Virus record (IMG/VR): IMGVR_UViG_3300018080_003823
Span: 1,805-65,804 of that record
Direction: 5' to 3' (one strand)
Origin: a virus
Taxonomy: Duplodnaviria > Caudoviricetes
Length of the DNA: 64,000 nucleotides
Below the pieces are notes generated by a model. It saw only the letters and a list, made by a program, of their open reading frames with translations, was not told where the DNA came from and did not search any database. The position numbers and the translations under genes are program-made. Shown piece by piece: positions 46,938-62,895 of the stretch (positions are counted from its first letter, which is position 1; the number at the start of each line of letters is the position of its first letter).

Positions 46938-46950
46938 AAAGGACAGAATA

Positions 46951-47088: not shown

Positions 47089-47098
47089 GAGGTTAATA

Positions 47099-47332
47099 AT
47101 GGTATGCACCCGTTGTGAAGGTACTGGTTTTTTGAATCTTCATCAAATAGATGAAGATAATGTTTTAGATGATGGAGTTGATGCTATTTTGATGTGGATA
47201 CAGACTCACGACAATCATGATGTAATGATTTGTGATTGTTGTGGAGGTGAAGAAGGGTGGTATGGAGAGCCAGGATACCATCATCACAACGGATCTGGAT
47301 GGGATACTCCTGGGATTCCGGATTGTATTTAG
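47099..47332 (+). CDS. small Cys-rich protein
   Basis: GGAGG RBS; CTRCEGTG and CDCCGG. Confidence 0.55.
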   Translation: MVCTRCEGTGFLNLHQIDEDNVLDDGVDAILMWIQTHDNHDVMICDCCGGEEGWYGEPGYHHHNGSGWDTPGIPDCI

Positions 47333-48468
47333 AATGGAGGATGTGAATATTTCCCATTAGGACGCCATTCTTTTCTGGCATGTGCAGATATAGTAAGTTG
47401 ATCTAATCCGCTTAAATCATCGGATATAGTAAATTGCAATTCATCGTGATTTTCTGCTTTTAATATTACAGGTTCGTGTATTCTTACAGAAATAGAAATC
47501 CAAGTATTTATTCCTGTATTACTACTACCATAGCTATCTAATGAAACTCCTGGTAGTTTTAATATATCTGACAACTGTCGAAATATTAAAGATTCACGAA
47601 CTGTTTCATCTTGGACTCTAAGATAACGCAAACCACTATCTAAAGCAGCAACTCCTAGCCACGAATTATATGGAATAGCAGGTACAGTCCCGTGTTCATT
47701 ATCTGAATTATAATCATTATCTGCTATAAAAACATGCAAACTACTTACATGAAGCCAGCTATCTTTTTCAGGAGTTACACAAAATGATATTGGAGCTATT
47801 CCACCTGCCGCTTCAGATAACTCGAATTGGATATCATCTAAATAATATTTCGGAGCTTTGCCTTCATCGGCTACTTGTTTGAATCTTAGAGCATTCATAG
47901 TTCCTACTAAGTTCATATCTTCTAAAGGAATAGAAATTTTATGCCATATATCGAATGAGTTCCAAGTAAAATAGTCTTCCAAAGCTGCGGAAATTCCTAT
48001 TTGTGAATTTGTTCCTGTATCCCATCCACAAACTTCTATTGAATCTCCTGCATTCCAGTCTTTATCAACATATATCCACATTGTCAATGATATATAATTA
48101 GAAAGTATTAAATCGCTACCTTTTGCGAATTGGTAAACATCATCTACATCTGCATTATCTGTTTTAATGCTATATGTACCATTATGGCTTTGATCTACGC
48201 TGCTGAATAGAGTTTTTACGCCTACAATAGAAGATCCTGTCCAGTAAGTGTCATCTGTTCCATTGTGTACATATTCCGGAGTTCCTGTAGGACTAGCACC
48301 CTGATTCATAGCTATTCCGTAATCTGGATTTGAGAAAAATATAACTTCATTCGTAAATATTTTATGATCTCGTGCAGCTACTACGAGTGCATGAGATTCA
48401 CCTTCAGAACAATCTACTTCTGCTTGTGTTCCTGTAGAAGGATCTGTTATGTGATTTTTAATAGACAT
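47329..48468 (-). CDS. probable virion protein with an inserted carbohydrate-binding-like module
   Basis: Central LSNYISLTMWIYVD..WHKISIPL..YYLDDIQF segment; N-terminus is related to the neighbouring paralogues. Confidence 0.6.
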   Translation of the reverse strand: MSIKNHITDPSTGTQAEVDCSEGESHALVVAARDHKIFTNEVIFFSNPDYGIAMNQGASPTGTPEYVHNGTDDTYWTGSSIVGVKTLFSSVDQSHNGTYSIKTDNADVDDVYQFAKGSDLILSNYISLTMWIYVDKDWNAGDSIEVCGWDTGTNSQIGISAALEDYFTWNSFDIWHKISIPLEDMNLVGTMNALRFKQVADEGKAPKYYLDDIQFELSEAAGGIAPISFCVTPEKDSWLHVSSLHVFIADNDYNSDNEHGTVPAIPYNSWLGVAALDSGLRYLRVQDETVRESLIFRQLSDILKLPGVSLDSYGSSNTGINTWISISVRIHEPVILKAENHDELQFTISDDLSGLDQLTISAHARKEWRPNGKYSHPPF

Positions 48469-49028
48469 TAAACTTTTTCATGAAAAAACATAGCAAGGGT
48501 CATTATTACATTAACGCTGTCTCCACTACCTCCGGCGAAACAATAGGCAGTAAATATGTTATTTTTAGGCACGATAATATAAGAATCCCACTCGGTCTTT
48601 GCGCTAGATGTAGCTTCTGTAAAATATAACCTATCTATTTCCCATCCTCCAGCTAATCCGGTTATATCTGTACCTACTTGACACGTACAATCGGCCAAAT
48701 TACCACTACCTGCGTTTCGGTTTCCTGGTGTACTATCTGTTCCATCTACAGGAGTACCAGTATCACCCAACTTGAAATAAATCTCGCAAGCATCATTGAC
48801 TCCAATACGGGCAGATGTTATTAAAAGATCTTTATCATCGGTGTTTTTTATATATAAAAAGCACGCATCATTACCATCCGGGACTTGATCAATCATAACA
48901 GAATACATGTCTCCATGAGTATGATTTACGTGATGTTGATCAGATTGCGAAACACATGATGACGCAATCATGTTTTCATTGCTGACTTTTACTTTGTAAC
49001 TGTGTCCTGTTCCATCTTCTATTTGCAT
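48468..49028 (-). CDS. probable virion protein, paralogue 3
   Basis: IEDGTG...V..EN; HHVNH; LYIKNT. Confidence 0.65.
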   Translation of the reverse strand: MQIEDGTGHSYKVKVSNENMIASSCVSQSDQHHVNHTHGDMYSVMIDQVPDGNDACFLYIKNTDDKDLLITSARIGVNDACEIYFKLGDTGTPVDGTDSTPGNRNAGSGNLADCTCQVGTDITGLAGGWEIDRLYFTEATSSAKTEWDSYIIVPKNNIFTAYCFAGGSGDSVNVIMTLAMFFHEKV

Positions 49029-49040
49029 AATTCTCTCCTG

Positions 49041-49616
49041 TTACCCATGATGTGCCAGGGAATGATAATTAAATGGTATTGATGCAATAACAGTAACAGA
49101 GCTAGTATCGCACCATACTGTGAATGTAGCACTCTTTGATACAATTATATCTTGAGGAAAATTACAATGGCTTGTGTTGGCAGCTGCTCTGAATACATGC
49201 CTTCCTACGATCTCTCCATTTGTCAAAGTAGCAGAGCCGCCATCTAAATCTGCTCCTTGCTCAAATACCCCATCTGCATCATTGTTAATACCTCCATGAA
49301 CATTAGCTGGGGTTATTGCTGTAGCATTATTTCGTGTACCTTGTCCATTTAGTTTGTAATACACCTGACATGCCCCATCTACTGACAAATCTATCCCTTC
49401 AATAACTAAGTCTTCTTCAGAAGTATTTTGTATGTACAATATACAATCATCATCAGCAGCAGGGGATTGCTCAAATAACAAAATATAAGCCTCTCCTTCA
49501 TGATGATTTACATGGTGTTCTACCGTACTACTTATAGAAGTTACAGCCAATCTGTTTTCATTATTAACGGAAGCTAGATTCCCTTGTCCTTTTCCATCTT
49601 TTATTGAGTCTGGCAT
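49041..49616 (-). CDS. probable virion protein, paralogue 2
   Basis: IKDGKGQGNLASVNNENRL; HHVNH; LYIQNT. Confidence 0.65.
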   Translation of the reverse strand: MPDSIKDGKGQGNLASVNNENRLAVTSISSTVEHHVNHHEGEAYILLFEQSPAADDDCILYIQNTSEEDLVIEGIDLSVDGACQVYYKLNGQGTRNNATAITPANVHGGINNDADGVFEQGADLDGGSATLTNGEIVGRHVFRAAANTSHCNFPQDIIVSKSATFTVWCDTSSVTVIASIPFNYHSLAHHG

Positions 49617-49628
49617 AACGCCTCCTAG

Positions 49629-50210
49629 TTACTTTAAAAATCCCAAAATATTTATAGCAGCTTCACCTTCTTCTTCTCCTTGAAGGTTTACAGATATTGT
49701 GTCATTAGTTCCAATGATAATAGCACCTCCAACATGGTAATGCTGGGCTCCCTGTCCGTTACACCAATAAAAACCTGCAGTTCCAGGCGTGTGACCTGTC
49801 ATGCCATCTCCTGTTTCGTCCCAATATAATACTGTTAAATCAGCAGACGATGGTATTGTGCGATTTGTAGCTCCAGCACTTCCGGTAGTTACATTTGTAT
49901 CCGGTACTGTGTCATTAAATACTAATTGACCGAGCATTGCTCTATTATGGTTGGTGTTGCCCCCATTCCAATTAAACCAGAAATCAGTAAAATAGAAATT
50001 TTTGGAGGAGTCTAAATTTTTAATAAACAGTATTCTTCCACCTGTAGTTGTTATAGTTCTCATAGGAGTGGTAATGCCAAAAGCATTTCCATCGAATTCA
50101 CTTCGTTTGGCTATTAGAGGAGTAGTAGTAGCAAATGTCAGCAATTGTTGTTCGCTATTTACTTCTGCTAGATTCCCTTTGCCTCTTCCATCACTAATCA
50201 TATCCGGCAT
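49629..50210 (-). CDS. probable virion protein, paralogue 1
   Basis: ISDGRGKGNLAEVNSEQQL; LFIKNL. Confidence 0.65.
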   Translation of the reverse strand: MPDMISDGRGKGNLAEVNSEQQLLTFATTTPLIAKRSEFDGNAFGITTPMRTITTTGGRILFIKNLDSSKNFYFTDFWFNWNGGNTNHNRAMLGQLVFNDTVPDTNVTTGSAGATNRTIPSSADLTVLYWDETGDGMTGHTPGTAGFYWCNGQGAQHYHVGGAIIIGTNDTISVNLQGEEEGEAAINILGFLK

Positions 50211-50380
50211 TATGATAATTCCTCTTTAGTTATTTCATTATCTGTTATTATTTGCAAATGGATGTTCATTATTCTAAGTTCTTGTAAAATTTTAGTTAAA
50301 AGTCCTTGGATGTTATCATCAGTTACTGCAACTTCAGTTTTGGTTCCTTCTGTTTGAGTTGGTTGTATTATATGAGACAT
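50210..50380 (-). CDS. small hypothetical protein
   Basis: TAATG overlaps on both sides; LL.KIL.EL..MN.HL..IT motif. Confidence 0.55.
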   Translation of the reverse strand: MSHIIQPTQTEGTKTEVAVTDDNIQGLLTKILQELRIMNIHLQIITDNEITKEELS

Positions 50381-50985
50381 TATAAAATATGCCATCCACT
50401 TCCGTTAGAGATTATGGGAAAACTCATATACTGCTGAGTAATAGCTTGTGAATCTTCTCCGTCAATGCTTTCTTCTGATGGGGCAGCTACAATTACGTTA
50501 TTTGATCCATCACTTATACGTTTAATATTGAAGCAATATCCATTTATTCCTATTGCAGAAGGCAATGTTATTGTAACTTCTCCTGCACTAGCATCTACCA
50601 GTATTACATCATCATCAAGTACTGCTGTGTAATCCGAAGACACAGTTTTAGTATTCCGAACTAATTCAGTAGCACGTTCTGCTTCTTCTGCTACTCTAGT
50701 ATCAGCTAAAACTGCAGGAATTATATTATCATAAATATCAGAAGTATCAATATTTTCTCTGCGGCGATTTTTGAATCTTAATAATCCTAATTCTACTGCC
50801 AATTTGAGATCGGTCGAATTTCCAATTCGTTGAATAGATGCTGATTTTAATAGATCATAAGTGCTACCGGGTAAAATTTCAACATTATCCAAATCACCCA
50901 GAGTAATAGGATTATTTGTAAGATTTTGCACAATTCGTGTCTCATTGTTGGAATCCGAACCTCTACCTTCTCTTCGTCTAAACAT
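50380..50985 (-). CDS. probable virion protein with a tail-fibre-type C-terminal domain
   Basis: DYTA..DDDVILVDAS...TITLPSA..IKRI..N.V....IDG...SNGSGW. Confidence 0.65.
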   Translation of the reverse strand: MFRRREGRGSDSNNETRIVQNLTNNPITLGDLDNVEILPGSTYDLLKSASIQRIGNSTDLKLAVELGLLRFKNRRRENIDTSDIYDNIIPAVLADTRVAEEAERATELVRNTKTVSSDYTAVLDDDVILVDASAGEVTITLPSAIGINGYCFNIKRISDGSNNVIVAAPSEESIDGEDSQAITQQYMSFPIISNGSGWHIL

Positions 50986-51725
50986 TATTTTTTGATCTCG
51001 TTAGTGGTTACTATTTTAGTGTTACGACCGGTATACATGGTTCGTTTAACAACTTCTTCATTGTGTCTTCCAGAGAATTTATCTTGCTTAGATTCTTCTT
51101 GTAATTCTGGATATTTTGATCCATAAATAGTTTGTTGCCAATTTTTTTCACTGTGCTGTAAATCTCCCTCATCAAGAGCAAGAATTTGTTTCTTATATCT
51201 ATGTGTTTCTGCAATAGGTCTTATTGCTTCGCGAATTATTGGAGCAATTGTTGTTGGATGTTTCATATTAGCATTATGCTGTTTTTGTATACCGTTAAGA
51301 GCATAAACTAGAGTCTCAAAAACTTGTTTAGCTAGCTTCTCTTCGGTTTTAGCAAATTTCCATATGGATTGTAATGCAGCGTAATCGAAACTTCCTGAAT
51401 AATGTGTTAATTTTAACTTATAAGAATCAGCAATTTTTCTAAGTATTACTTCACAAGAATAATTATCTCTATTGGCTTCTGTGGTCACGAAACGAAATAC
51501 TTGAGATTTAATTACATCTTTAGATTGGCTCTTTGCAAATTTGTCTAAGAAATCACTGTACCCTGCTATCGTAATATCCGATTCAGGAATATCGATATCA
51601 TCATGTTCCATGACAATTTTAGCGATTTTAGCATAATTCTCAGTAAAATTGTCTAAAAAATGGCTACAATTGTTTCCCCATTTCATAGTACTTCCCTCGA
51701 TAAGCGACTTGTAGTATATATTCAT
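50985..51725 (-). CDS. hypothetical protein
   Basis: 246-aa ORF heading the minus-strand cluster. Confidence 0.65.
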   Translation of the reverse strand: MNIYYKSLIEGSTMKWGNNCSHFLDNFTENYAKIAKIVMEHDDIDIPESDITIAGYSDFLDKFAKSQSKDVIKSQVFRFVTTEANRDNYSCEVILRKIADSYKLKLTHYSGSFDYAALQSIWKFAKTEEKLAKQVFETLVYALNGIQKQHNANMKHPTTIAPIIREAIRPIAETHRYKKQILALDEGDLQHSEKNWQQTIYGSKYPELQEESKQDKFSGRHNEEVVKRTMYTGRNTKIVTTNEIKK

Positions 51726-51823
51726 ATATTATTTAGTCTCTCCTTTTTTAAAAACCATTTTCCTGATATCAAGAAAATGGTCGTATCAAGAGTGTATAAT
51801 TGAACTCACCTATGGAGATTTTT

Positions 51824-53038
51824 ATGTCAAAAAAACTTGCTCTTTTTACTTCTGAATCTGTTACAATGGGTCATCCTGACAAAGTCGCTGATAGTATTTC
51901 TGATGCAATTTTAGACAGTCTTATTAAGCCCGATCCGCATGTACGAGCTGCAATAGAAACTTTGGTTACCACTGACACTGTTGTTGTTTCCGGAGAGATT
52001 ACCGTTCATAATGAAGCGGCAAAACAAGCTCTTAAAAACATAGAACAAACAATAAGACGTACTATTCAGCAGATCGGGTATACCAGACCAGGCTCTGGAT
52101 TCGATTACAAGACGTGCAAAATTGACTCTAAAATACATCCTCAATCCGAAGACATTAGTCGTGGTATTACACGAGATGAAAAGCCAGATACAGAGCAAGG
52201 AGCTGGAGACCAGGGGATGATGTTTGGTTATGCTTGTAATGAGACTAAATCCCTCATGCCTCTGCCTATTCAGCTGGCTCATCGATTAGTCAAACAATTA
52301 GCTTTAGTTCGAGAACTGGATATTTGCCCATGGGTTCTTCCTGATGGTAAATCGCAAGTAACTATTGAATACGAAGATGGTAAACCAGTGGGTATACATA
52401 ATATTGTAATATCAACTCAACACACAGAAGATGTTATTTCGAGTTCTACAGATGAAATTAGTGATATTGCCAAAGAAGAGATTTTGGAGAATGTTATAAA
52501 GCCTGCTATTCAGCATGAATGTCCACAATTCTCCAAAGATAATTTTTCTATTCATATTAACCCAACTGGTCGTTTTGTAATAGGTGGACCCCATGGAGAT
52601 ACAGGTCTCACGGGAAGGAAAATAATTGTAGATACTTATGGAAGTATGGGACGCCATGGAGGAGGAGCATTTTCTGGCAAGGATCCAACTAAGGTAGATC
52701 GATCAGCAGCTTATATGGCTAGGTATATTGCCAAAAATATTGTTAGTAATAAATTAGCTGATCGGTGCGAAGTACAGCTTGCTTATGCTATTGGTGTAGC
52801 AGAACCTGTGAGTGTTTTAATAGATACTTTTGGGACTGGTTCTATAGAAGAAGATAAGTTAGAAAGAATTGTTCGTAATATATTTCCTTTGACTCCAGCA
52901 GGTATTATTAAAGAATTAGATCTTCGTCGTCCTATTTATTATGAAACATCACATCATGGGCATTTTGGTGGGACTAATTCAGATTTTACATGGGAGAAAT
53001 TGTGGGATTATACTATTCTTCTAAATAGAATTTTATAA
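51824..53038 (+). CDS. metK: S-adenosylmethionine synthetase
   Basis: [62 protein letters not shown]. Confidence 0.97.
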
Positions 53039-53084
53039 TGTGTTTCATAGTGTATAATAAAAATGCACTATATGGAGAAATACA

Positions 53085-53753
53085 ATGAGCACAATAAGAG
53101 TAAAAAAAGTTGATAATTTAACTGATTCAATAGATCAAGAAGCGTTAACGGAAATGCAGAGGAAGATGAAATACAAGAAGATGGGCATAAAAAATGCTAT
53201 GAGCCGTCATAGCAGACAAATGGAATTAGCAAGAAATAGGCTTGATTCTAACTTTAGTGAGTATTTGGAACAGGATGAAATAATTAGGCTATTAAAAATA
53301 TCACACGATATTGAAGAAAATCCCAGTCAGTTACATTGTAAGTGCAAACACAAAGATGCCCCCCATACTCCTGATTTTGACTTGAATGTATTTGTAAATA
53401 GAATCAAACAAATGAAAATAGAGGATAATCCACGTCGTTTGTGCTCATCATTAATAGCAACATTAGATGCTATTAGCACCGATTTGACAGAAGATAATAT
53501 TAATACATTAAGAGAATTATTGCCAAAGATAGTTGATATATTACATTCTGTAGAAAAAGAGAGGAATAGGACTACTTCGATGGACAAGGAGGAAATAAAA
53601 GAATTCGAAAAATCATGTTTGGTATCTACTTGTATGACTGACGAATTCTGGACGGATATCATTTTACAGAACAGATTGCATTCCATCACAAGAAAAGAAC
53701 AAAATAAGCGTAATAATTTTTCGATAGATGATATTGACATCGATTTTCTGTAA
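53085..53753 (+). CDS. hypothetical protein
   Basis: 222 aa; GGAG RBS, with TATAAT upstream. Confidence 0.65.
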   Translation: MSTIRVKKVDNLTDSIDQEALTEMQRKMKYKKMGIKNAMSRHSRQMELARNRLDSNFSEYLEQDEIIRLLKISHDIEENPSQLHCKCKHKDAPHTPDFDLNVFVNRIKQMKIEDNPRRLCSSLIATLDAISTDLTEDNINTLRELLPKIVDILHSVEKERNRTTSMDKEEIKEFEKSCLVSTCMTDEFWTDIILQNRLHSITRKEQNKRNNFSIDDIDIDFL

Positions 53754-53761
53754 TGTATAAT
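53734..53761 (+). promoter_or_regulatory. consensus sigma70 promoter for the tRNA/pth operon
   Basis: TTGACA (53734-53739)-N16-TATAAT (53756-53761), 9 nt before the tRNA. Confidence 0.8.
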
Positions 53762-53770
53762 GTAGTTGTA

Positions 53771-53844
53771 GCGTCAGTAGCTCAATTAGGCAGAGCAGTT
53801 CTCTCTAATAGAACTGGTTCCAGGTTCAAGTCCTGGTTGACGCA
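53771..53844 (+). tRNA. amber-suppressor tRNA (anticodon CUA), CCA not encoded
   Basis: Acceptor GCGTCAG/TTGACGC+A73, D arm GCTC/GAGC, anticodon stem GTTCT/AGAAC with loop CT-CTA-AT (anticodon 53805-53807), T arm CCAGG-TTCAAGT-CCTGG. Confidence 0.93.
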
Positions 53845-53881
53845 ATAGTAGATAATTAAGTCTATTTTAAGGAGAAAAACA

Positions 53882-54274
53882 ATGGGTTTTACGTAGGTAC
53901 AAGAGCCGTATTTGTATGTCATAGTCCGAAAAGATCTTTCAACTCCACAACAAGCCGTTCAGGCAATGCACGCTATTTTTGAATTAACCACTTCAGAGTC
54001 CTTTAAACCACCGTAGAGACATCCTAACATAATATTTTGTGAAGTTCGTAATGAGCGTCAATTATTCAAATTTTCTCAGAAATTAAAAACAGAGAATATA
54101 AAATTTGTCATTTTTCAAGAACCAGATATCGGTGATGAATATACAGCTCTGGCCACAGAGATAGTATATGATCACCGATCTTTGTTTAAAAATTTACAGT
54201 TAGTTCAGGATAATTGCACAAAGGGAACATTTCATACTCTGGTTGCAAACAATAAAAAGGAGCCAAAATCATGA
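53882..54274 (+). CDS. peptidyl-tRNA hydrolase (Pth2-like), 130 codons with two in-frame TAG (53894, 54014); not in ORF track
   Basis: AAGGAG RBS; MGFT*VQEPYLYVIVRKDLSTPQQAVQAMHA..PP*RHPNIIFCEVRNE..FQEPDIGDEYTALA. Ends in TGA with ATGA overlap with the next gene. Confidence 0.85.
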
Positions 54275-54774
54275 ATAGTACTATTGTTGATCAAGCATTT
54301 AAAACTAGATGGGGTTATGTTGCATATAGTTATGAGGATTACAAAAAGCTTAAAAGATTGAATATAATTTTCCAAAAAGCTCGCACTTATGCATATCAAT
54401 GGGAGAGATGGGTAAGAAAAGCTCCTCATAATAGAGTACGTAAAATTTGGAAGCGAGATGAGAATAGACACAAAATCGGATATACTATTTCAGGACCATT
54501 GCCCGAACCTCAGTTTTGTGATATATTTTTCACGAAATTAGTAGATACTGATCGTAATCCTATTGGACAAAGATGGCTTAATATGGTTATTTATTCTAAT
54601 ATAGGATACATACGAATCGATAAAGATATTGCTACAGAATATCGTAATTCTCATCGTCCAGTAGAAACGTCCGAAAAGGTTCCGGAAGCCAATATGTCTA
54701 GTGATGAAATTGATGAATTACTTGAAAAAGCAGAAGATTGGTATAATTCAATAAATGCTGTTACGTCTGTCTGA
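54271..54774 (+). CDS. hypothetical protein coupled to the pth2 gene
   Basis: ATGA overlap with the pth2 stop; AAGGAG RBS. Confidence 0.7.
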   Translation: MNSTIVDQAFKTRWGYVAYSYEDYKKLKRLNIIFQKARTYAYQWERWVRKAPHNRVRKIWKRDENRHKIGYTISGPLPEPQFCDIFFTKLVDTDRNPIGQRWLNMVIYSNIGYIRIDKDIATEYRNSHRPVETSEKVPEANMSSDEIDELLEKAEDWYNSINAVTSV

Positions 54775-55521
54775 CAGCATGTTTCTTTGTTTCCGGATGG
54801 ATGATATTTTAGAAGTATGTATAAATGAGCCAATTGTCTGTTCAGTGTCACCGGATGCTGAACAGACAATTGTGCCATCCGGATCTATTATTCTGCTTGA
54901 CCCACAAAATGTTAAATTCTTATCTCGTCCAACTCTATTACATGCTACGACATATACCTGATTTTCGATTGCTCTGCACATAGTTAATATTTCCCAATGT
55001 TTTAAATTAGTAAAAGCAGCAATGATAATAATTATTTCAGCCCCATTAGCTGCTAAGGTTCTTGCTACTTCTGGGAAATAAATATCATATCCGATTAAAA
55101 AACCGAATTTAATTCCTCTTATATTAACTATTGGAAGTGAATCACCAGGCGTCATATGATGTTTTTCATATACAGGATAAGAGTGCAATAAATGAGTTTT
55201 TCTATAACACATTGTTTTTTCCAAATCATATATCATCATACTATTAAACAAATGGCTGTTAGTTTTTTCTGAAAGCCCACAAATTACTCTTACATTTAAT
55301 TCCTCAGCTTTACGTTTAATCTTGTCATACGGAGTATTAGAAGACCATGACGATGAGCAATCTGATATGTTTGTCATTTCATATCCAGTATCAGATAATT
55401 CTGGGAATATTACTAATTGACAATTATCTAATTGCGCTTTTTCTATTGATTTTATGATTTTTGAGCAGTTATGTTCAATATTTCCAACATCACAATTAAG
55501 CTGTACTACATTTATTTCCAT
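54748..55521 (-). CDS. carbon-nitrogen hydrolase (nitrilase-fold) lacking the catalytic Cys
   Basis: VIFPEL, YRKTHL, LIGYDIYFPE (normally ICYD), RAIENQ, GSSRIIDPDG. Confidence 0.85.
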   Translation of the reverse strand: MEINVVQLNCDVGNIEHNCSKIIKSIEKAQLDNCQLVIFPELSDTGYEMTNISDCSSSWSSNTPYDKIKRKAEELNVRVICGLSEKTNSHLFNSMMIYDLEKTMCYRKTHLLHSYPVYEKHHMTPGDSLPIVNIRGIKFGFLIGYDIYFPEVARTLAANGAEIIIIIAAFTNLKHWEILTMCRAIENQVYVVACNRVGRDKNLTFCGSSRIIDPDGTIVCSASGDTEQTIGSFIHTSKISSIRKQRNMLSDRRNSIY

Positions 55522-55830
55522 AATATTTTTGCACCTATTAACGATTAATCGAACTATTTAATGTTTCCTCCCTATTTAGTAGGAAATCAATATATTGTCG
55601 GATGATCATATTGCAAACTAGAGAAATATCACGCTAAAAATCATTAATATTCAAGAAAGTAGCAATTCTAAATTAGAACATGCCCGAAAAATTGGCGAAT
55701 CAATCAGAAGAGACTGAAAGGCAATAGATTTTCCTGCAGAACAGTTTGTAATGAGATTATAAGTAGAGAAGGAACACGGATCTGATCCTGAGATCAATGT
55801 TACAAATGAAGGGGGAGGGATTCTCTCGAT

Positions 55831-56334
55831 CTAAAGGAAGTAAAGGCAAGTATAAATTTTGGAATCTACAAGATAACCCTGTTCTGCTTTCGTTTTAAGC
55901 CACTCATCTAAAATTTCTAAATGAACCTTATGTAGCACAATATCTTCAGCTGGATCTTGCCTAGGATTAGTGCATTTGGTAAGTCCTTCTGCTTTAAAAA
56001 GTGTTATCTTCTCTGAAGTTAATCCTGACGAAGTGGGAGTTTTCATGATTTTTGTTAGAGACTTAGCCTGATAGCCAGTTTCTTCTTCTAATTCAGTTTT
56101 AACTGCTTCTTCAGGACTCTGTCCTTCTAGATTGTCACCTACGAGTCCAGCTGGAATTTCAATAGTTCTATTATCAACAGGAATACGAAACTGCTCAACC
56201 AATAACAATTCATCGTCTTCGGTGATAGCTAAAATACCGATGACTCCGGTAGTATTACTTCGCTCTACATATTCCCATCCATATTTTGAAGTGACTTTTA
56301 AAAACTTTCCTTCGAACAATGAACTGCCACCCAT
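55831..56334 (-). CDS. NUDIX hydrolase (ADP-ribose pyrophosphatase-like)
   Basis: LVEQFRIP..IEIPAGLV...EEAVKTELEEETGY. Confidence 0.85.
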   Translation of the reverse strand: MGGSSLFEGKFLKVTSKYGWEYVERSNTTGVIGILAITEDDELLLVEQFRIPVDNRTIEIPAGLVGDNLEGQSPEEAVKTELEEETGYQAKSLTKIMKTPTSSGLTSEKITLFKAEGLTKCTNPRQDPAEDIVLHKVHLEILDEWLKTKAEQGYLVDSKIYTCLYFL

Positions 56335-56373
56335 GTTTTTGTCCTTGTTAATATATGTTAGAAACCTACTGCT

Positions 56374-56401
56374 ATATTACTACATTCTAGCAAAATGTCA
56401 A
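56374..56401 (-). promoter_or_regulatory. possible sigma70 promoter for the NUDIX gene
   Basis: Minus-strand TTGACA-N16-TAATAT. Confidence 0.5.
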
Positions 56402-56413
56402 GAATTTTTTTGA

Positions 56414-57424
56414 TCAGAATTCTGATTCATCAATTCTGTACCACTTTATATATGGTTTTCGAGCATTCCCAGTAATATAATTTACAATGAATATGGAATC
56501 ATCTGGTAATTGTACCCATCCTGTATAACCTGAATCTGAACGAGAACTATTATCATGATCCAGAGGCAAAATAATTGATTTATCAAAATTACTTATAAAA
56601 GAATCAGGGCTAGTCAAACAAGCAAAAGTGTTTTTAGCCCAATATCCTCGAAAAAATGAATGTGATGCTTCTCGATATGTTGTAAGTAAACGCCCAGAAC
56701 GTAATATACCACAAACAGGACGATGACAACCAGCCATACGAGTTTCTATAACAGGAGACCAGCTAACACCATCTTTTGAAGTACAATAATATGCGGGTCT
56801 CCCTATTCCAGAATTTTCTCGCATTACACAAAATAAACGGGGTTTATGATAAAAAATAGAGCCTTCACAAAAATTAAATCCTGACTTGTGTGCAACTGGA
56901 TGTTGTTGCCATGGACCTTCTAGGCTGTTACTAATCCAGACATTTTGAGTTAAATTTTCTTGATAAGGCTCATCTAATGAACGCCTTCTGGTATGAGTAG
57001 CAATAAGAAACTTATTGTGAAATTGAAAGATTCTATCAGGAACTATTCCTGAAATTCCTAGATCTATTGGTTCTTCCCAAGTCTCTCCGTCTGTAGAACG
57101 CCATAGGAGGACGCTGGTGCGCTCTGGGGTATCTTCTGCTCCAATGTAGTCTTCTGAAGCCTCTACACGGTCACACAGGACGCACAGGGTATCTTCTATG
57201 ACCATAATGCGGGGACAATTGTAGCGATCTTGACTGGTAGATATTGTTATTGGATCTAGAAATGTTTCAGCATCTTTGGATTGAGCAAGTTTAATTTTAG
57301 TTTCACTAGCTGTTTTATGTTGGTCTGATTCTCTGTAAACTACAAACAATTTTCCATTGAAAAATGCTATATCAGGATGACCTTGCCAAATTCCATCGTC
57401 TCGATTAACTATTCCTTTTTGCAT
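56414..57424 (-). CDS. BNR/Asp-box beta-propeller (sialidase-like) protein
   Basis: Asp boxes SKDAETF, STDGETW and SKDGVSW; DSGYTGWVQL. Confidence 0.8.
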   Translation of the reverse strand: MQKGIVNRDDGIWQGHPDIAFFNGKLFVVYRESDQHKTASETKIKLAQSKDAETFLDPITISTSQDRYNCPRIMVIEDTLCVLCDRVEASEDYIGAEDTPERTSVLLWRSTDGETWEEPIDLGISGIVPDRIFQFHNKFLIATHTRRRSLDEPYQENLTQNVWISNSLEGPWQQHPVAHKSGFNFCEGSIFYHKPRLFCVMRENSGIGRPAYYCTSKDGVSWSPVIETRMAGCHRPVCGILRSGRLLTTYREASHSFFRGYWAKNTFACLTSPDSFISNFDKSIILPLDHDNSSRSDSGYTGWVQLPDDSIFIVNYITGNARKPYIKWYRIDESEF

Positions 57425-57430
57425 GCATTA

Positions 57431-58066
57431 TTATACACATTTTTTGAAATATGTTTCTACTACGCCCATGTTAGTAACTTGACTGTCTTCAACAGAATTC
57501 CAAATTATTTCTAATTTTTCACAATGAGCAAAATCATCAGCAACTATGGTCTTTCGTCCAAATCGTTTTTTGCTTTCGACTAATCCTGGGTGACAAAAAT
57601 CAATTAATTCTGTACAACTAAATCTATCTGTATTGTTGAAATCAAATCCAAAATCATATGGACTTCCAACTACTTCTAAAGCTTTTTTGATCGCATCTAA
57701 TTGTCCTTCGGGTGGACGCAATATGATAAGATGATCTGTTCGTATAAAATTAAGAAAATCTTCTTGTAATACTCCATCACTTACAGCATGGACTACTTGT
57801 TCTGGCTGTCCGTTTATGTTCCCGACATACAATCCAGCGTGATTCCAGAATCCTGGAAAAAGATATGAACTTAAATATCCATCAAATCTACGTAGAAGGA
57901 TATCTCCTGGTTGCATTATCTTAATTATTTTTCGATAATGTTCTCCTTTTAATCTATATCCTACGGCATTAATTGTAAACCAGAATGGATGTGCGATTCC
58001 TCCCCATTTAATATCCCCGATAAATCGGAAAATGGCTTTTTGAAATCTATATAGATATTTATTCAT
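57431..58066 (-). CDS. permuted papain-like NlpC/P60 (YiiX/YebB-like) protein
   Basis: QPGDILL..WNHAGLY..PYDFGF..FSCTEL. Confidence 0.8.
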   Translation of the reverse strand: MNKYLYRFQKAIFRFIGDIKWGGIAHPFWFTINAVGYRLKGEHYRKIIKIMQPGDILLRRFDGYLSSYLFPGFWNHAGLYVGNINGQPEQVVHAVSDGVLQEDFLNFIRTDHLIILRPPEGQLDAIKKALEVVGSPYDFGFDFNNTDRFSCTELIDFCHPGLVESKKRFGRKTIVADDFAHCEKLEIIWNSVEDSQVTNMGVVETYFKKCV

Positions 58067-58163
58067 GGACTGGAATACGCTTTTAAAGGATAATTATCCT
58101 TCCGGATTACATACAATTGCGGTATAATGTACCATCATCTTGAACTTGAATATGGAGATTATT

Positions 58164-60251
58164 ATGCGATTTCATATACCAGGATTGCCTCATACAGTAA
58201 CCAACAAAAAGTTTTGTCATTGCGCGTTTACTCAAAAAGTTTATAAATTATGTGATATGCTTCATTCTTTAGGGCATGATATTATTCACTATGGATGTGA
58301 AGGTAGTGATCCGGTATGCACTGAACATATTGATGTTATCACCGATGATTTTCGTAAACAATATTATCCAGATGAATGGCATGATAAACAATGGGACTAT
58401 GATGTTAAAGATGAATGCCATAAACAATATTTCAATAAAACTATTACTGAGATAAAGAAAAGAAGAACAGATGACGATTTTCTTCTGTGTAGTTGGGGAT
58501 GGGGGCACCAACCGATAGCTTCTGCTCTAAGTGATTCTATAATGGTTGTGGAACCCGGAATTGGGTACAAAGACACTTTTTGTAGTTTTAGAGTTTTCGA
58601 ATCATATAATTGGATGTCTCATGTCTATGGTCAAGGTCAAATGGATTCTAAAACAGGCAAACGAGTAGCCCAGGAAAATGGGCGTTTTTTTGATGCTGTA
58701 ATTCCCAATTACTTTGATCCTGATGATTTCGATTATACCCCTAATGACAAAGAAGATTATTTCTTGTTTTTAGGGCGTATTGTTAAGCGAAAAGGAATAC
58801 ATGTAGCTGTTGATGTTATGACTCGAATTGGTGGGCATCTTAAAGTGGCAGGTCAAGGTCAATTTAACAAAATGCCTTCACGGTGTGGAGAAATTATAGA
58901 ACATATAGGATTTGTAAATGTAGAGCAACGAAGACAATTGTTAGCTAAAGCCAAAGCTGTTATTATGCCTACGCTTTATATAGAACCATTTGGAGGCGTT
59001 GCGGTTGAAGCCATGATGAGTGGAACTCCAGTCATATCAACAGATTGGGGAGTATTTCCGGAAACTGTCTTGCATGGGCTTACAGGTTATCGATGTAGGA
59101 CACTAGAGCAATTTGAATGGGCATGCCGTAATATAGAAAATATATCTCCGGAAACTTGCAGAACATGGGCTATGAATAATTTTGCCATGGATCGTGTGGC
59201 TAAAATGTATCAGGAATATTTTGAATTCCTTTCTTATACCAAAGAAAAAGCAGGTTGGTATAAGATGAATCGTCAGCGTAGTGAAATGAGCTGGCTAGAC
59301 AAGCAATATCCACAAGCATCTCCAAAGTCTGAGTCTCTACACACAGAACCGGTTTTATCAGAAACCAGAAATATTCTTCCGTTAGAAAATGAGCCTGATT
59401 ACGAATTAGATCTTAGTTGGTATGACAAGCAAAGAAAACCTGGTATATCATTCTTAATGAGAGCAAAAAATGAAGAGAGAACTATTGGAATGGCTCTAGA
59501 TTCTTTGAGTCAATTAACAATTCCATATGAAATAAATTTAGTTCTTAATAATTGCGAAGACAAAACCCGTGATATTGTACAGGACAGAATAGATAAAGGT
59601 TATCCGATTAATTTATATGATTATCCATTTCAATTAGGCAAAACCGGCATTGAGAATCAATGCACTCCTGTAAATAGTGTGCATTCTACTATCTGGTTGT
59701 TAAATTGGATGCTTTTAAAAGCTAATTATGAATATACTTTTAGATGGGATTCGGACTTCATGATGACTTCTGCTTTGGCAGAAGAAATCGAAGAGAAAGT
59801 TATTCAAGATTCTGAAGCAGATATTTTCAATATTTCGGCAATATTCTCGGATTCAGGCAAAGCCAATAAAGAGCCATATCTCTGGTCTAATTCCCTAAAA
59901 CCTCGTTATTGCCGTTATTCACTATGGCATTTGACGAAATTCGGAGTCCAAGGACCACGAATATCTTCGCTAGATGGTGCAATAATTCACGATAGCCCGT
60001 TATCTCATGTGAAGAGCTATTGGGATACTGATCCATGGTGGGAATCTGAGCACAGAGAAGAAACAGAAGAAATGATTCAAATGTGCAAGGAAAAGTATGC
60101 AAAATTAATAGAAGTAGCAGGTGATTCTAGTCCTCGCGGTAGAGCATCGTGTCCTGAATCAGAAGAATTAGCCAAAAAAATTCAAAAAGCTTTAGGAGGT
60201 GTTGATGTCGAAGAAATCATTCCCCTTAAGGAACATACATTAATGATTTGA
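58164..60251 (+). CDS. glycosyltransferase fusion (GT4-like N-terminal plus GT2-like C-terminal)
   Basis: [36 protein letters not shown]; then [16 protein letters not shown]. Confidence 0.85.
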
Positions 60252-60294: not shown

Positions 60295-62895
60295 ATGGCC
60301 ACGACCGTTGATCATAATTATGGTGTCGAAATTCAAGCTGGTATTCCACCAATGCTGGCGGTACCTATATCTGGTACTGTTAGTATTCAAATTTTCAATA
60401 CTAGCAACGAAATTGTAGGAGAAACCACATCAACTCCTCAAGGAATATGGCGTCAATCATTTCAATTAGAAGATGGATCTTATATCGTCAAATTTAGTGG
60501 TAGATTCCGTCCTATTGGAATTGGATTTCATTCATCATTTACCAAAACTGTACCTTCAGTAACATTAAATATAGCAGTACCTTTATCATCTGATTTTGAT
60601 CCAGAAATACCGTCTACTACAGGTAAAACTGGAGCAACAGGACCAGAAGGACCTATGGGATTAATTGGTCCAGCTGGACCGGCAGGTTCTGACGGGTTGC
60701 CAGGTCCTATTGGAGCCACAGGACCGGAAGGTCCTATGGGACTAACAGGAGCTGATGGGTCTTCTGGATCTCCCGGTGTTCAGGGTATACAAGGACCTGC
60801 GGGACCACAAGGCAGCCAGGGAAATCAAGGGGCCGCAGGGCCTCAAGGGCCTATAGGTCCTCAAGGATTACAGGGTCCAGTAGGAGCTACTGGACCTGTG
60901 GGGCCAGCAGGAGCAGATGGATCTGGCACAGGAGCAACTGGAGCTGGAGCTACAGGACCACAAGGAGAAATAGGAGCTACTGGACCTGCAGGAGCAGATG
61001 GAGCAATTGGAGCTACTGGCCCTGCAGGAGCAGATGGAGCAATTGGAGCTACTGGCCCTGCAGGAGCAGATGGAGCAATTGGAGCTACTGGCCCTGCAGG
61101 AGCAGATGGAGCAGTTGGTGCCACAGGTCCTGTAGGTGATGCAGGTGACCTTGAACTTGGCACTCCTACTGATGGTAGCTGGGCCGATGGATTGTTTTCT
61201 TCATGGACTAGCTCTACATGGACTAATGATGCTATAGATGATATAAATGAAGTATTAAGCAGTTTGGCTCCTTCTCCAGCTCCAGATCTAGATGATGTAG
61301 ATGTAGATACTAATGGAGAGAATGGAAAACTCTCTTTTGATGGCTCTAATCCAATTGCAGAAGATACTTATTATGCTGTTACAGGTATTGGTTCTCGTCC
61401 TGCAGTAACTGTAGATAATGCCTTTAATGATAGTGGAGATCGAGCAGGTATTATAGGTTTAAACACTGATGTTACTGGAACTCTCAATGAAGATGTAGAT
61501 GAAGGAGCTGGGAGTCCTACTGCGGCTTATCCTGCTAATGCTTTTGGAGATGCAGATCAGGGTAATTTAATATTAGAGCTTAATGGAGTCACCGAGCGTA
61601 CTATAGATCTTTCTACTGCTGGAGCAGTAGATGATGGTTCTGCTACAACTGGATTTGATATCTCTGATCATTCATCTGTTAGTTTTCCTAATGGTGATCC
61701 GTTTACTCAATTCCAATACAGAACTGGATCTTGGAGAGTAGATAGCTCTGATATGAGATTAGGGTGGAATTATGTTAGAATCCGTCATGAGAAAACTGCT
61801 GGAGTTTTTACTGATACAAATTATGTAGATTGGGTAGTAGATGGTAATGCAGCTGCTACTACATTCTCAGGAGAAACACTAGATAATTTATCTATGTCAG
61901 GAGCAAGTACTCTCTCAGGAGTAACTTATCACACTTCTGGAGATGCTGATTATGATGTAGTAATAGACAATGGACAAAGAAACACTTATATAGAAACAAA
62001 TGCTATAACTTTTTCTACAACTAGGTGCAGCGTATCTTCTTTGAGCTTTTCTGCTACAGGAGGCAACGAGTTAGCCACTACTACTATTACCAATAGAACT
62101 GTAACAGTTAGTACGGGTAGAATTTTAAACCAAACCATTGAAGTTCAAACCTCAGTTGATCGTACTACAAATAGCACCTTAAGTAGCACTAATAAAACTA
62201 TTAGTGGACTTTTAGTAGACACATATATTAGTGGAGCTAGTGGGCAAGATAATAATAGTGAAAGCTTCAATGCTGAAGGTTACCGTCAAACTTCTGATAT
62301 CTCTTTAACAGATACTGGATTTGGTAGCGGACCAGGTAACGGAACTGCTGATTGGACCAGTTCAACTAGCATAACAACTGGAGGGGCAGGATATAATGAC
62401 GGTCTATTACAATATAATGGTAGACTGTACTATCCAACCAATGGGGCTAACGGTGGTAATTTTGGAGGAATAACTAATGGCCCTGCAGGAAATCCAGATT
62501 ACTCATCTGCTTCAGGTGACAGAGTTTATTTAAGATATTTTTATGATAGCTCTCCTAGACAAAACTTTGTATTTAATATAAGTGTATCAAGTACCACTTT
62601 TGTATCTGTTGCCACAGGTCCTAGTGGTAATAATGTTACAGCTGAGATATTAGCTCCTAATACTACTCAAGATGGAGTAGGAACTATAGAGTGGAAGGAC
62701 ATGGTGACATCTTATACTGATGATGACAGCATTGGCGCTTACAATGCTAGTGGAGGAGCTACCATTCCAACCGATTGGGGTGTAACATTGGGTACTAGAT
62801 CAACCAGTACATCTGGGTATGTTATAGTAGTTCGAATTACTGCTTCCTCAAGCTGGTCCGGGTATATAAACAGCATAGAGGTTTCTTTCTCTTAG
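60295..62895 (+). CDS. collagen-repeat fibre/structural protein
   Basis: Gly-X-Y tract at ~60620-61150 followed by a Ser/Thr/Gly-rich beta region. Confidence 0.8.
60973..61130 (+). repeat. 36-bp tandem repeat ([12 protein letters not shown], ~4 copies)
   Basis: Units of ggagctactgg(a/c)cctgcaggagcagatggagcaatt. Confidence 0.85.

What the first reader, a model, noticed from the sequence alone, without database searches (positions are those of the whole stretch)
53734..54774. Amber-suppressor tRNA operon whose next gene is a peptidyl-tRNA hydrolase containing two in-frame amber codons
Seen: a consensus TTGACA-N16-TATAAT promoter, a clean cloverleaf tRNA with anticodon CUA, and 37 nt later an RBS-led frame MGFT*VQEPYLYVIVRKDLS..QQAVQAMHA..PP*RHP..FQEPDIGDEYTALA. 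Both interruptions are TAG. The frame ends in TGA overlapping the next gene's ATG. The stops sit before the first conserved strand and in a loop-like segment, outside the conserved motifs. Elsewhere TAG is an ordinary stop (terL 4594, 11946, 62895) and long genes are not TAG-broken, so the genome is not recoded. Established: V(R/K)xDL..Q..HA..EPD...TA is the Pth2-type signature, and RF1 competes with suppressor tRNA at UAG. Inference: a self-contained read-through switch in which Pth is made only when the phage tRNA outcompetes RF1 twice. This could be when termination is impaired by host defence or takeover, which is when peptidyl-tRNA recycling is needed. Two stops would make the response roughly quadratic.
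Basis: partly seen in the sequence, partly recalled or inferred. Interest (0 to 1): 0.93.

Follow-up and report, generated by a model that had tools for sequence, protein, structure and literature searches.

The report
Suppressor-tRNA-gated phage Pth2-like gene cassette
A phage that otherwise uses the normal genetic code carries one UAG-reading tRNA followed by a small tRNA-hydrolase-like gene that keeps UAG stops at codons 5 and 45, and related phages keep the same layout, so the enzyme is probably made only while that tRNA overrides the stop.

Summary
A perfect TTGACA-N16-TATAAT promoter (53734-53761) precedes the genome's only tRNA (53771-53844, anticodon CUA). It is followed by an RBS-led Pth2-fold gene (53882-54274) with TAG at codons 5 and 45, then an overlapping 167-aa gene.

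The phage is not recoded: 13 of 67 long ORFs end in TAG and none is TAG-broken.

In 17 of 17 distinct related loci the gene keeps a TAG within its first five codons, and 11 of 17 keep the second TAG. Synonymous sites are saturated (median pS 0.76) and dN/dS is about 0.15 on both sides of TAG45. A CUA tRNA lies upstream in 15 of 18 loci.

In 80 more distant IMG/VR loci of the family, 74 hold a suppressor tRNA, and it is the nearest tRNA in 66. Twenty-one have a TAG at codon 3-5, as does the cultured Acinetobacter phage ME3.

Best reading: a suppressor-tRNA-gated gene, and a protein that is a functional partner of that tRNA. Read-through, the inserted residue and hydrolase activity are not shown.

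I found no paper that describes this. This scan has already noted the same design on other DNA (328 notes, at least 226 genomes).

The parts
53734..53761 (+). Sigma-70-type promoter, TTGACA-N16-TATAAT, 9 nt upstream of the tRNA
   Evidence: 12 of 12 match. Only such match in the window, 0.16 expected by chance. That it is used is an inference.
53771..53844 (+). Amber-suppressor tRNA, anticodon CUA, short variable loop, A at the discriminator position, no encoded CCA
   Evidence: ARAGORN. Rfam tRNA 62.5 bits. In 15 homologous tRNAs, 15 of 22 stem pairs show compensatory changes while CTA is invariant. BLAST neighbours are mostly phage tRNA-Trp genes.
53869..53874 (+). Shine-Dalgarno AAGGAG, 7 nt before the ATG of the leader
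   Evidence: Read from the sequence. A GGAG-type motif sits before the leader ATG in the related loci.
53882..54274 (+). Pth2-fold gene, 130 codons if both TAGs are read through
   Evidence: With TAG=Q it scores 23.7 bits on PF01981 against a 23-bit cut-off, and 28 of 28 family members match PF01981. AlphaFold2 model pLDDT 83. Top Foldseek hits are Pth2 structures with TM 0.65-0.75 normalised to the target. dN/dS is about 0.15.
53894..53896 (+). Gate 1: in-frame TAG at codon 5 (MGFT-TAG-G), in the disordered N-terminal tail
   Evidence: An early TAG is kept in 17 of 17 distinct relatives. The codons before it vary synonymously. Model residues 1-9 are coil.
54014..54016 (+). Gate 2: in-frame TAG at codon 45 (KPP-TAG-R), in the loop between helix 21-36 and strand 49-55
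   Evidence: TAG in 11 of 17 relatives; the others have CAT (2), TAT, AAT, GAA or a gap. Loop position taken from the model.
54271..54774 (+). Third gene of the operon: 167-aa protein of unknown family; its ATG overlaps the TGA of the Pth2-like gene
   Evidence: tblastn found it in 14 of the 18 related loci, and it lies directly behind the Pth2-like gene in 12 of them. The 9 full-length copies I examined have their own GGAG motif. No Pfam or PHROG family. Model pLDDT 84 with no informative structural match. Absent from 80 distant loci.
54755..54790 (+). Terminator-like hairpin plus T-rich tail at the end of the third gene
   Evidence: Pattern scan: 9-pair stem followed by GTTTCTTTGT. A consensus match only.

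Best explanation
This is a three-part phage operon: promoter, amber-suppressor tRNA(CUA), a Pth2-fold protein gene and a 167-aa partner gene.

The Pth2-like mRNA is translated past codon 5, and in this phage also past codon 45, only when the phage's own charged CUA tRNA beats release factor 1 at UAG. The tRNA is therefore made first, and the protein follows only once the tRNA is abundant and functional. That is a feed-forward gate built from stop codons placed in structurally tolerant spots.

The same protein family sits beside suppressor tRNAs in most distant relatives, even where the gene has no TAG. The protein is therefore most likely a functional partner of the suppressor tRNA, for example freeing it or other tRNAs from peptidyl- or acyl-tRNA made as a side effect of read-through or drop-off. 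It is less likely to be a general housekeeping hydrolase.

Shown: the anatomy, conservation, selection, fold and linkage. Inferred: co-transcription, read-through by this tRNA, competition with RF1 (established knowledge of UAG decoding) and the hydrolase activity.
For: **1. The TAG itself is selected.**
- In 17 of 17 distinct loci (window, L001-L012, L014-L017) the gene has a TAG within its first five codons.
- In the codon alignment of these 17 genes, the only columns (with a residue in at least 15 sequences) where one codon reaches 85% are the ATG, the TAG5 column (15 of 16) and two sense codons (GAT and TAT, 15 of 17 each). This holds although median pS is 0.76, and 71 of 136 pairs are saturated.
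- The four leader codons vary synonymously: GGT/GGA, TTT/TTC, ACG/ACA/ACC/ACT.

**2. Both halves are coding.** Median dN/dS is 0.145 between the two TAGs and 0.165 after TAG45. The Pfam match runs across TAG45, covering residues 11-80.

**3. No general alternative start.** A start-capable codon between the early TAG and the conserved core is absent in 7 of 17 loci.

**4. Linkage to the tRNA.**
- A CUA tRNA lies upstream on the same strand in 15 of 18 loci.
- In 80 distant IMG/VR loci, 69 hold a CUA tRNA, 4 a UUA tRNA and 1 a UCA tRNA. A suppressor is the nearest tRNA in 66 of 80, always on the same strand and often 4-17 nt behind the gene.

**5. The early TAG recurs widely.**
- It occurs in 21 of those 80 loci, in a MAG contig (L106) and in cultured Acinetobacter phage vB_AbaM_ME3 (MT-TAG, with a CTA tRNA about 450 nt upstream).
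- Across 36 distinct genes the TAG is at codon 3 (11), codon 4 (3) or codon 5 (22).
- It is followed by a purine in 35 of 36 genes, against 65 of 114 for TAGs that end long ORFs in the same loci (Fisher p = 1.3e-6, not corrected for relatedness).

**6. Not genome-wide recoding.**
- 13 of 67 window ORFs end in TAG.
- Code-11 coding density is 0.84-0.955 in the related loci, and TAG-as-sense gives no gain over a TGA-as-sense control.
- A scan for RBS-led genes with an early stop found no excess beyond the Pth2-like genes and one L017 gene: 28 TAG hits, 19 of them those genes, against 10 TGA hits and 3 TAA hits.

**7. Fold.** Model pLDDT is 83, and the best Foldseek matches are Pth2 structures (2zv3, 3erj, 1wn2, 1xty, 1q7s). 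The family profile hits 2zv3 at E = 2e-6.

**8. The tRNA is real.** 15 of 22 stem pairs show compensatory changes and the anticodon is invariant.
Against: - There is no direct evidence that UAG is read through, of which residue is inserted, or that the protein hydrolyses anything.
- No RNA data were available.
- The loci are related phages, so counts of conserved TAGs and the Fisher test overstate independence. Saturated synonymous sites argue against simple inheritance, but I did no tree-aware test.
- TAG45 is missing in 6 of 17 relatives, and 59 of 80 distant loci have no early TAG. Gating is therefore dispensable for the protein's function.
- Some distant loci look genuinely TAG-recoded, because TAG-as-sense raises coverage. 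There a TAG in this gene need not be special.
- HMMER aligns only the N-terminal two thirds to canonical Pth2, and the family has a gap where canonical Pth2 has Gly-Lys. The chemistry may therefore differ.
- The Gln shown at both sites in database homologues only reflects gene callers that read TAG as Gln. P0007 equals the L009 gene with TAG at both sites.
Confidence: 0.72

Rival explanations
1. Incipient or partial code-15 recoding without a regulatory role. After the phage acquired a suppressor tRNA, TAG drifted into tolerant positions of a nearby gene as a neutral synonym of a sense codon.
For: - Borges et al. propose that suppressor acquisition precedes recoding and report standard-code relatives that carry suppressor tRNAs (passages read).
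- Both TAGs sit in tolerant positions, a disordered tail and a loop.
- At the codon-45 column, TAG alternates with CAT, TAT, AAT and GAA.
- A few distant relatives have TAGs at other internal positions, in L034, L038, L043, L044, L045 and L104.
- Some distant loci look recoded.
Against: - A neutral synonym should interchange with sense codons at this divergence (median pS 0.76). Yet the early TAG is kept in 17 of 17 loci and recurs at codon 3-5 in 36 distinct genes.
- No other gene of the window or of the 16 related loci shows homology-supported in-frame TAGs, except one L017 gene that carries the same leader.
- TAG remains a common true stop.
- The purine bias after the early TAG (35 of 36) is not seen at terminating TAGs.
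Confidence: 0.12
2. The tRNA's real job lies elsewhere, such as reading through TAG-terminated phage or host genes or countering a defence. The TAGs in the Pth2-like gene merely tie an accessory gene to the tRNA, so the linkage is an addiction or co-inheritance device and not a sensor.
For: - A tRNA would not be kept only to express a gene that could simply lack TAGs.
- 13 window ORFs end in TAG and would be extended by 2 to 72 residues if read through.
- The 115-aa ORF 40194-40541 ends in a TAG that is in frame with the 359-aa ORF 40563-41642.
- Most distant relatives keep the gene-tRNA pair without any TAG in the gene.
Against: - No conserved read-through extension was found. In the one fusion candidate the TAG is followed by T, and the downstream ORF has its own start after a purine-rich stretch.
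- The XacN1 authors also found no read-through targets for their CUA tRNAs (passage read).
- This reading does not exclude gating. It only changes what gating is for.
Confidence: 0.1
3. The first four codons are a separate minigene (MGFT-stop). It acts by termination-reinitiation, or by producing peptidyl-tRNA, and the Pth2-like protein starts at a downstream codon independently of the tRNA.
For:
- The window has a TTG at codon 11 preceded by AAGAG.
- GenBank annotates the ME3 homologue from a Val codon after the TAG.
Against: - A start-capable codon after the early TAG is missing in 7 of 17 loci, and the codon-11 column is CTT, CTG, GTC, ATA, GTA, ATC or GTT in 10 of 17.
- The residues between the TAG and the core (EPY) are conserved as protein.
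- TAG45 would still block the protein in 11 of 17 loci.
- The stop in the leader is TAG in all 36 distinct early-TAG genes compared, never TAA or TGA, and nearly all of these loci carry a CUA tRNA.
Confidence: 0.05
4. A pseudogene, or a sequencing or assembly error.
For: There are two in-frame stops in a 130-codon frame. A standard-code gene caller truncated one homologue: P0009 starts after the TAG.
Against: - dN/dS is about 0.15 on both sides of TAG45.
- The same TAGs occur in independent contigs from several projects.
- A second assembly of the run is identical.
Confidence: 0.01

Closest known systems
Stop-codon-recoded phages with their own suppressor tRNAs (TAG read as Gln, 'code 15'; crAss-like, Lak and others; Borges et al., bioRxiv 10.1101/2021.08.26.457843, passages read; Peters et al., PMC9523058, abstract seen)
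   Same: A phage-encoded CUA tRNA lets the phage translate genes that a standard-code host would terminate. The stop codon is proposed to time expression.
   Different: In recoded phages, 26-71% of genes carry in-frame stops, mainly structural and lysis genes, and TAG is depleted as a stop. Here one gene is affected (two in L017), the structural genes are TAG-free and TAG ends 13 of 67 ORFs. The TAG sits at a fixed place (codon 3-5), and the client gene is physically linked to the tRNA.
prfB (RF2) autoregulation through an in-frame UGA early in its own gene
   Same: An early in-frame stop inside a translation-factor-like gene makes its synthesis report on how that stop is being decoded.
   Different: prfB escapes by +1 frameshifting, and its product is the factor that reads the stop. 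Here escape would be by a suppressor tRNA. Whether the product acts on UAG decoding is unknown.
Canonical archaeal/eukaryotic Pth2 (PF01981; PDB 2zv3, 3erj, 1wn2, 1xty, 1q7s) and the PTH2 genes reported in jumbo phages (Iyer et al., PMC7824862, passages read)
   Same: Same fold (target-normalised TM 0.65-0.75). Shared R-x-D-L...Q..HA N-terminal motif. 28 of 28 members match PF01981.
   Different: The phage proteins are shorter, about 96-130 aa. They have a two-residue gap where canonical Pth2 has Gly-Lys, and their own invariant E-P-D...T motif is not aligned by HMMER. They are linked to suppressor tRNAs, which the jumbo-phage paper does not mention (0 occurrences of 'suppressor').
Orphan suppressor tRNAs of standard-code phages, e.g. 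Xanthomonas phage XacN1 (PMC5852040, passages read)
   Same: CUA tRNAs in a phage that uses the standard code. XacN1 also encodes a homologue of this protein as the C-terminal part of ORF364.
   Different: The XacN1 authors looked only for extensions after terminal TAGs and found no target. Here the target is an in-frame TAG at the start of a neighbouring gene. In XacN1 no tRNA lies within 2.5 kb of the homologue.
Lambda bar minigenes and Pth (rap) (recalled; lead from note e1-6235310)
   Same: A strong RBS followed by a 2-4-codon ORF, connected to peptidyl-tRNA hydrolase biology.
   Different: bar minigenes are stand-alone and end in a true stop. Here the short ORF is the head of the hydrolase-like gene itself, and its stop matches a tRNA encoded alongside.

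Membership tests
Pth2 (PF01981) peptidyl-tRNA hydrolase family | Score at or above the Pfam gathering threshold | tested here: met
   With X at the TAGs the window protein scores 22.8 bits against a 23-bit cut-off. With TAG=Q it scores 23.7 bits, and 28 of 28 aligned family members match with a best E of 1.5e-10. The window protein alone is marginal.
Pth2 (PF01981) peptidyl-tRNA hydrolase family | Pth2 alpha/beta fold | tested here: met
   AlphaFold2 model has pLDDT 83 and pTM 0.71. The 12 listed Foldseek rows with E of 1.4e-4 or better are 2zv3, 3erj, 1wn2, 1xty, 1q7s, 1rlk and 2gax.
Pth2 (PF01981) peptidyl-tRNA hydrolase family | Catalytic residues of canonical Pth2 | tested here: inconclusive
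   The D-L...Q..H-A block is shared. The family has a gap at the canonical Gly-Lys, and HMMER stops aligning at about profile position 79 of 109. Which residues are catalytic in Pth2 I know only from recall, and the paper I sought was not held.
Pth2 (PF01981) peptidyl-tRNA hydrolase family | Hydrolysis of peptidyl-tRNA | not testable with these tools
   Needs an enzyme assay or complementation of a pth(ts) strain.
Functional suppressor tRNA | Cloverleaf with canonical D and T loops and a CUA anticodon, maintained by selection | tested here: met
   Rfam 62.5 bits. ARAGORN. Compensatory changes in 15 of 22 pairs and an invariant CTA across 15 loci.
Functional suppressor tRNA | Aminoacylation, and which residue is inserted at UAG | not testable with these tools
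   BLAST neighbours are mostly phage tRNA-Trp genes. The discriminator base varies (A, G, C) among the 15 tRNAs. The Gln in database proteins is a gene-caller convention.
Code-15 (TAG-recoded) phage | Many genes with in-frame TAG, and TAG rare or absent as a true stop | tested here: not met
   One gene in the window has in-frame TAGs. TAG ends 13 of 67 ORFs. TAG-as-sense gives no density gain. No other homology-supported in-frame TAG.
prfB-like autoregulatory stop | Conserved early in-frame stop in the gene | tested here: met
   17 of 17 close loci, and 36 distinct genes with the TAG at codon 3-5.
prfB-like autoregulatory stop | The product acts on decoding of that same stop | not testable with these tools
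   Only the linkage to suppressor tRNAs (66 of 80 nearest-tRNA cases) hints at it.
bar-type minigene | Strong RBS plus an ORF of 2-5 codons | tested here: met
   AAGGAG-N7-ATG GGT TTT ACG TAG. This is anatomy only. Drop-off and toxicity were not tested.

The most novel reading that the evidence does not exclude
The cassette is a self-tuning controller of UAG read-through. The Pth2-like enzyme acts specifically on the suppressor tRNA, hydrolysing its peptidyl or acyl form. Its own synthesis needs that tRNA once or twice, so the pair forms an autoregulatory loop that sets how ambiguously the infected cell reads UAG. This would be a phage-borne analogue of prfB autoregulation, and a general answer to why standard-code phages carry 'orphan' suppressor tRNAs.
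Probability: 0.2. Interest if true: 0.9.

Novelty: new variant of a known kind. Interest (0 to 1): 0.78.

Why it matters
Suppressor tRNAs in phages that use the standard code have had no known client. The XacN1 authors searched for one and found none. Here the client is identified by position and conservation: a small Pth2-fold gene next to the tRNA, often with a UAG at codon 3-5.

- The design is widespread. It gave 359 relatives in IMG/VR and 2,381 cluster representatives at E of 1e-10 or better.
- It is present in a cultured phage (ME3), so it can be tested directly.
- If the gate works as read, it is a natural tRNA-operated translational switch, and a possible first step on the road to stop-codon recoding.
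- The pair also offers a compact natural part for orthogonal control of gene expression.
- I found no paper holding both 'PTH2' and 'suppressor tRNA' (0 hits). The two papers that hold 'peptidyl-tRNA hydrolase', 'suppressor tRNA', 'in-frame' and 'bacteriophage' are general reviews by their titles and abstracts.
- Supplements were closed and subscription journals are not searched, so a prior description cannot be excluded.

Tried and rejected
**Searches that led nowhere**
- DNA similarity of 53000-55600 to GenBank phages: no match.
- The tRNA against E. coli genomes: no match.
- A single-protein scan of IMG/VR found nothing. The alignment-based scan found L001.

**Gln at the TAG sites.** I first took the Gln at both sites in database homologues as evidence for TAG=Gln. 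I rejected this when the locus DNA showed TAG there.

**Other in-frame TAG candidates**
- An all-against-all search for other in-frame TAGs gave mostly off-frame artefacts of DNA-level conservation.
- The apparent TAG in the BNR-like gene of L005 and L006 is a true stop followed by the next gene.
- The window candidates 36804, 63719 and 60147(-) from the early-TAG scan lie off-frame inside longer ORFs.

**Third gene (54271-54774).** No Pfam or PHROG family. No usable Atlas hit. No Foldseek match at E of 0.001 or better. VIA-align gave at best Z 5.5 to helical bundles, which is uninformative.

**Stop-anticodon covariation (lead from e1-5642810).** My five loci with UUA or UCA tRNAs (L052, L082, L083, L085, L086) show no early TAA or TGA in the gene. 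The lead was therefore neither confirmed nor refuted here.

**Expression.** No RNA holder was listed for this DNA. The one DNA run is probably the source.

**The paper on Pth2 active-site residues** (PMC2253226) is not held.
Full report
**What is there**

The window is 64,000 of the 65,804 bases of a single contig with 36% G+C. It is a tailed phage, with a terminase at 2252-4594 only distantly like known ones (25% identity to Streptomyces phages).

The features at 53734-54790 on the + strand, in order:
- The only perfect TTGACA-N16-TATAAT in the window.
- The contig's only tRNA, 53771-53844, anticodon CUA.
- After a further 37 nt, AAGGAG-N7-ATG and a 130-codon frame, 53882-54274, with TAG at codons 5 and 45.
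- A 167-codon gene whose ATG overlaps the TGA of that frame, 54271-54774.
- A terminator-like hairpin, 54755-54790.

**The phage is not recoded**

Of 67 long non-overlapping ORFs, 37 end in TAA, 17 in TGA and 13 in TAG. The gap of 517 nt that holds the tRNA and this frame is the largest hole in the code-11 gene map. Reading TAG as sense raises coding density only from 0.951 to 0.958, and a TGA-as-sense control gives 0.944.

**The protein**

- With X at the TAGs it scores 22.8 bits on PF01981 (cut-off 23), over residues 11-80 and so across TAG45. With TAG=Q it scores 23.7 bits, and all 28 of 28 aligned relatives match PF01981.
- A profile of the family hits the Pth2 structure 2zv3 at E = 2e-6.
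- An AlphaFold2 model has pLDDT 83. Its best Foldseek matches are Pth2 structures 2zv3, 3erj, 1wn2, 1xty and 1q7s, with target-normalised TM 0.65-0.75.
- HMMER aligns only about the first 79 of 109 profile positions. The family has a two-residue gap where canonical Pth2 has Gly-Lys.

I call it Pth2-like. Activity is not shown. Codon 5 falls in the disordered N-terminal tail, and codon 45 in the loop between helix 21-36 and strand 49-55.

**Relatives**

The word-index search gave 20 homologues, the closest showing Gln at both TAG positions. This is not independent evidence. P0007 is the L009 gene with TAG read as Gln, and P0009 is the L006 gene truncated after its TAG.

- Eighteen loci were recovered. 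L013 repeats L012, and L018 is cut at its 5' end.
- In all 17 of 17 distinct genes (window included) a TAG lies within the first five codons. Fifteen have the form M-x-[F/H/Y]-T-TAG. L001 has two early TAGs, and L005 and L016 have TAG at codon 3.
- The second TAG is present in 11 of 17. The others have CAT twice, TAT, AAT, GAA or a gap.
- A CUA tRNA lies upstream on the same strand in 15 of 18 loci. The exceptions are L003, L016 (70 nt of upstream sequence) and L018 (7 nt). In L017 the tRNA is 7.9 kb away.
- These 15 tRNAs show compensatory changes in 15 of 22 stem pairs, with an invariant anticodon.

**Selection**

- Synonymous sites among the 17 genes are saturated. Median pS is 0.76, and dS is finite in only 65 of 136 pairs.
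- Median dN/dS is 0.146 overall, 0.145 between the TAGs and 0.165 after TAG45.
- Among columns with a residue in at least 15 sequences, only four have one codon at 85% or more: the ATG, the TAG5 column (15 of 16) and two sense codons.
- The four leader codons vary synonymously.
- A start-capable codon between the early TAG and the core is absent in 7 of 17 loci. Re-initiation therefore cannot be the general route.

**No other clients**

An all-against-all comparison of stop-to-stop frames found no other well-supported in-frame TAG in the window. A scan for RBS-led genes with an early stop gave 28 TAG hits, 19 of them Pth2-like genes or the L017 gene, against 10 TGA hits and 3 TAA hits. The exception is L017, where the gene after the Pth2-like gene also begins MGFT-TAG (phrog_14850, function unknown).

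**The wider family**

A scan of IMG/VR with more distant members gave 359 relatives, of which 80 were returned.
- 78 of the 80 hold a tRNA within 4 kb. 69 hold a CUA tRNA, 4 a UUA tRNA and 1 a UCA tRNA.
- A suppressor is the nearest tRNA in 66 of 80 (61 CUA, 4 UUA, 1 UCA). It is always on the same strand and often 4-17 nt behind the gene. Two loci have no tRNA and 12 have another tRNA nearest.
- 21 of 80 have a TAG at codon 3-5.
- Among 185,579 prokaryote genomes only 6 contigs, all from MAGs, carry the family. Four of them have a CUA tRNA, and L106 begins MT-TAG.
- In GenBank, the cultured Acinetobacter phage vB_AbaM_ME3 has MT-TAG before ME3_195 and a tRNA annotated 'OTHER, anticodon CTA' about 450 nt upstream.
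- Klebsiella phage RaK2 has the gene without a TAG, between tRNA-Leu and tRNA-Gly. XacN1 has the domain at the end of ORF364, with no tRNA nearby.
- Over 36 distinct early-TAG genes the TAG is at codon 3 (11), codon 4 (3) or codon 5 (22). The next base is A (24), G (11) or C (1). After TAGs that end long ORFs in the same loci it is A 33, C 24, G 32, T 25 (Fisher p = 1.3e-6, relatedness not corrected).
- Some distant loci may be truly recoded.
- The profile finds 4,853 cluster representatives at E of 0.001 or better and 2,381 at E of 1e-10 or better. The weaker ones will include canonical Pth2.

**The third gene**

tblastn found a homologue of the 167-aa protein in 14 of the 18 related loci. 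It directly follows the Pth2-like gene in 12 of them and lies further away in L017 and L001. The 9 full-length copies I examined have their own GGAG motif. The protein has no Pfam or PHROG family. Its confident model (pLDDT 84) has no informative structural match. It is absent from the 80 distant loci, so it is specific to this clade.

**Interpretation**

The TAGs are maintained as TAGs in a coding, selected gene that sits beside the one tRNA able to read them, in phages that otherwise use TAG to stop. The simplest mechanism is a translational gate. Ribosomes stop after four codons unless the charged CUA tRNA wins against RF1 (the competition is established knowledge). In this phage they must win again at codon 45.

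The gene-tRNA pair is kept even where the gene has no TAG. I therefore infer that the protein works with the suppressor tRNA, and that gating is an added layer. What the protein hydrolyses, which residue is inserted (the BLAST neighbours of the tRNA are mostly phage tRNA-Trp genes), and whether the loop is feed-forward or feedback remain open.

**Literature and earlier notes**

Borges et al. describe genome-wide recoding and suppressor tRNAs in standard-code relatives. The word 'hydrolase' does not occur in that preprint. Iyer et al. report PTH2 in jumbo phages without mention of suppressors. The XacN1 paper found no target for its CUA tRNAs. No held paper contains both 'PTH2' and 'suppressor tRNA'.

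This scan has met the same design before on other DNA: 328 notes in at least 226 genomes. One of them was later re-checked, with 'what was seen stands' and a 20/100 chance for its bold reading.

What this window adds:
- A small, single-tRNA phage in which the tRNA comes first, under a consensus promoter.
- A second conserved gate at codon 45.
- A clade-specific third gene.
- A portable MGFT-TAG leader.

Noticed in passing
L017:8310-8978: The gene after the Pth2-like gene also starts MGFT-TAG behind its own GGAG motif. It lies in frame with the end of the Pth2-like ORF, whose first stop is that same TAG. It matches phrog_14850 (function unknown, E = 3e-42). The leader therefore looks portable.
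   Followed up: partly
window 40194-41642: A 115-aa ORF ends in TAG at 40539-40541. Seven codons further on, it is in frame with a 359-aa ORF (40563-41642). Read-through would fuse them. The TAG is followed by T, and the second ORF has its own ATG after a purine-rich stretch.
   Followed up: no
window 46137-60251: The cassette sits among auxiliary genes. These are an R2K ATP-grasp protein (46137-46937), SAM synthetase MetK (51800-53038), a carbon-nitrogen hydrolase (54748-55521, -), a NUDIX protein (55831-56334, -), a BNR-repeat protein (56414-57424, -), a C92 papain-like amidase (57431-58066, -) and a two-domain glycosyltransferase (58140-60251). The BNR-like gene is syntenic in L005, L006 and L007.
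   Followed up: partly
window 60295-64000: Collagen-repeat proteins (PF01391). The contig ends inside a GEQ-type repeat, so the assembly probably broke there and the genome is incomplete.
   Followed up: no
proteins P0004-P0011: Public protein sets hold these genes either read through with Gln at the TAGs (a gene caller using TAG=Gln) or cut short after the TAG (P0009, P0010). Database residues at such sites say nothing about the real residue.
   Followed up: yes
L099:2474-2812 (Acinetobacter phage vB_AbaM_ME3, KU935715): GenBank starts ME3_195 at a Val codon after the TAG. An ATG-ACT-TAG leader lies 36 nt upstream in frame, and the CTA tRNA is annotated only as 'tRNA-OTHER'.
   Followed up: partly
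L034, L038, L043, L044, L045 (about 4001-4290) and L104: Some family members without an early TAG carry a single internal in-frame TAG at differing positions.
   Followed up: no
L002:7758-8012, L006:7926-8012, L008:2553-2660: The frame upstream of the leader ATG is open and contains a TAG a few codons before that ATG, in the same frame as the Pth2-like gene.
   Followed up: no
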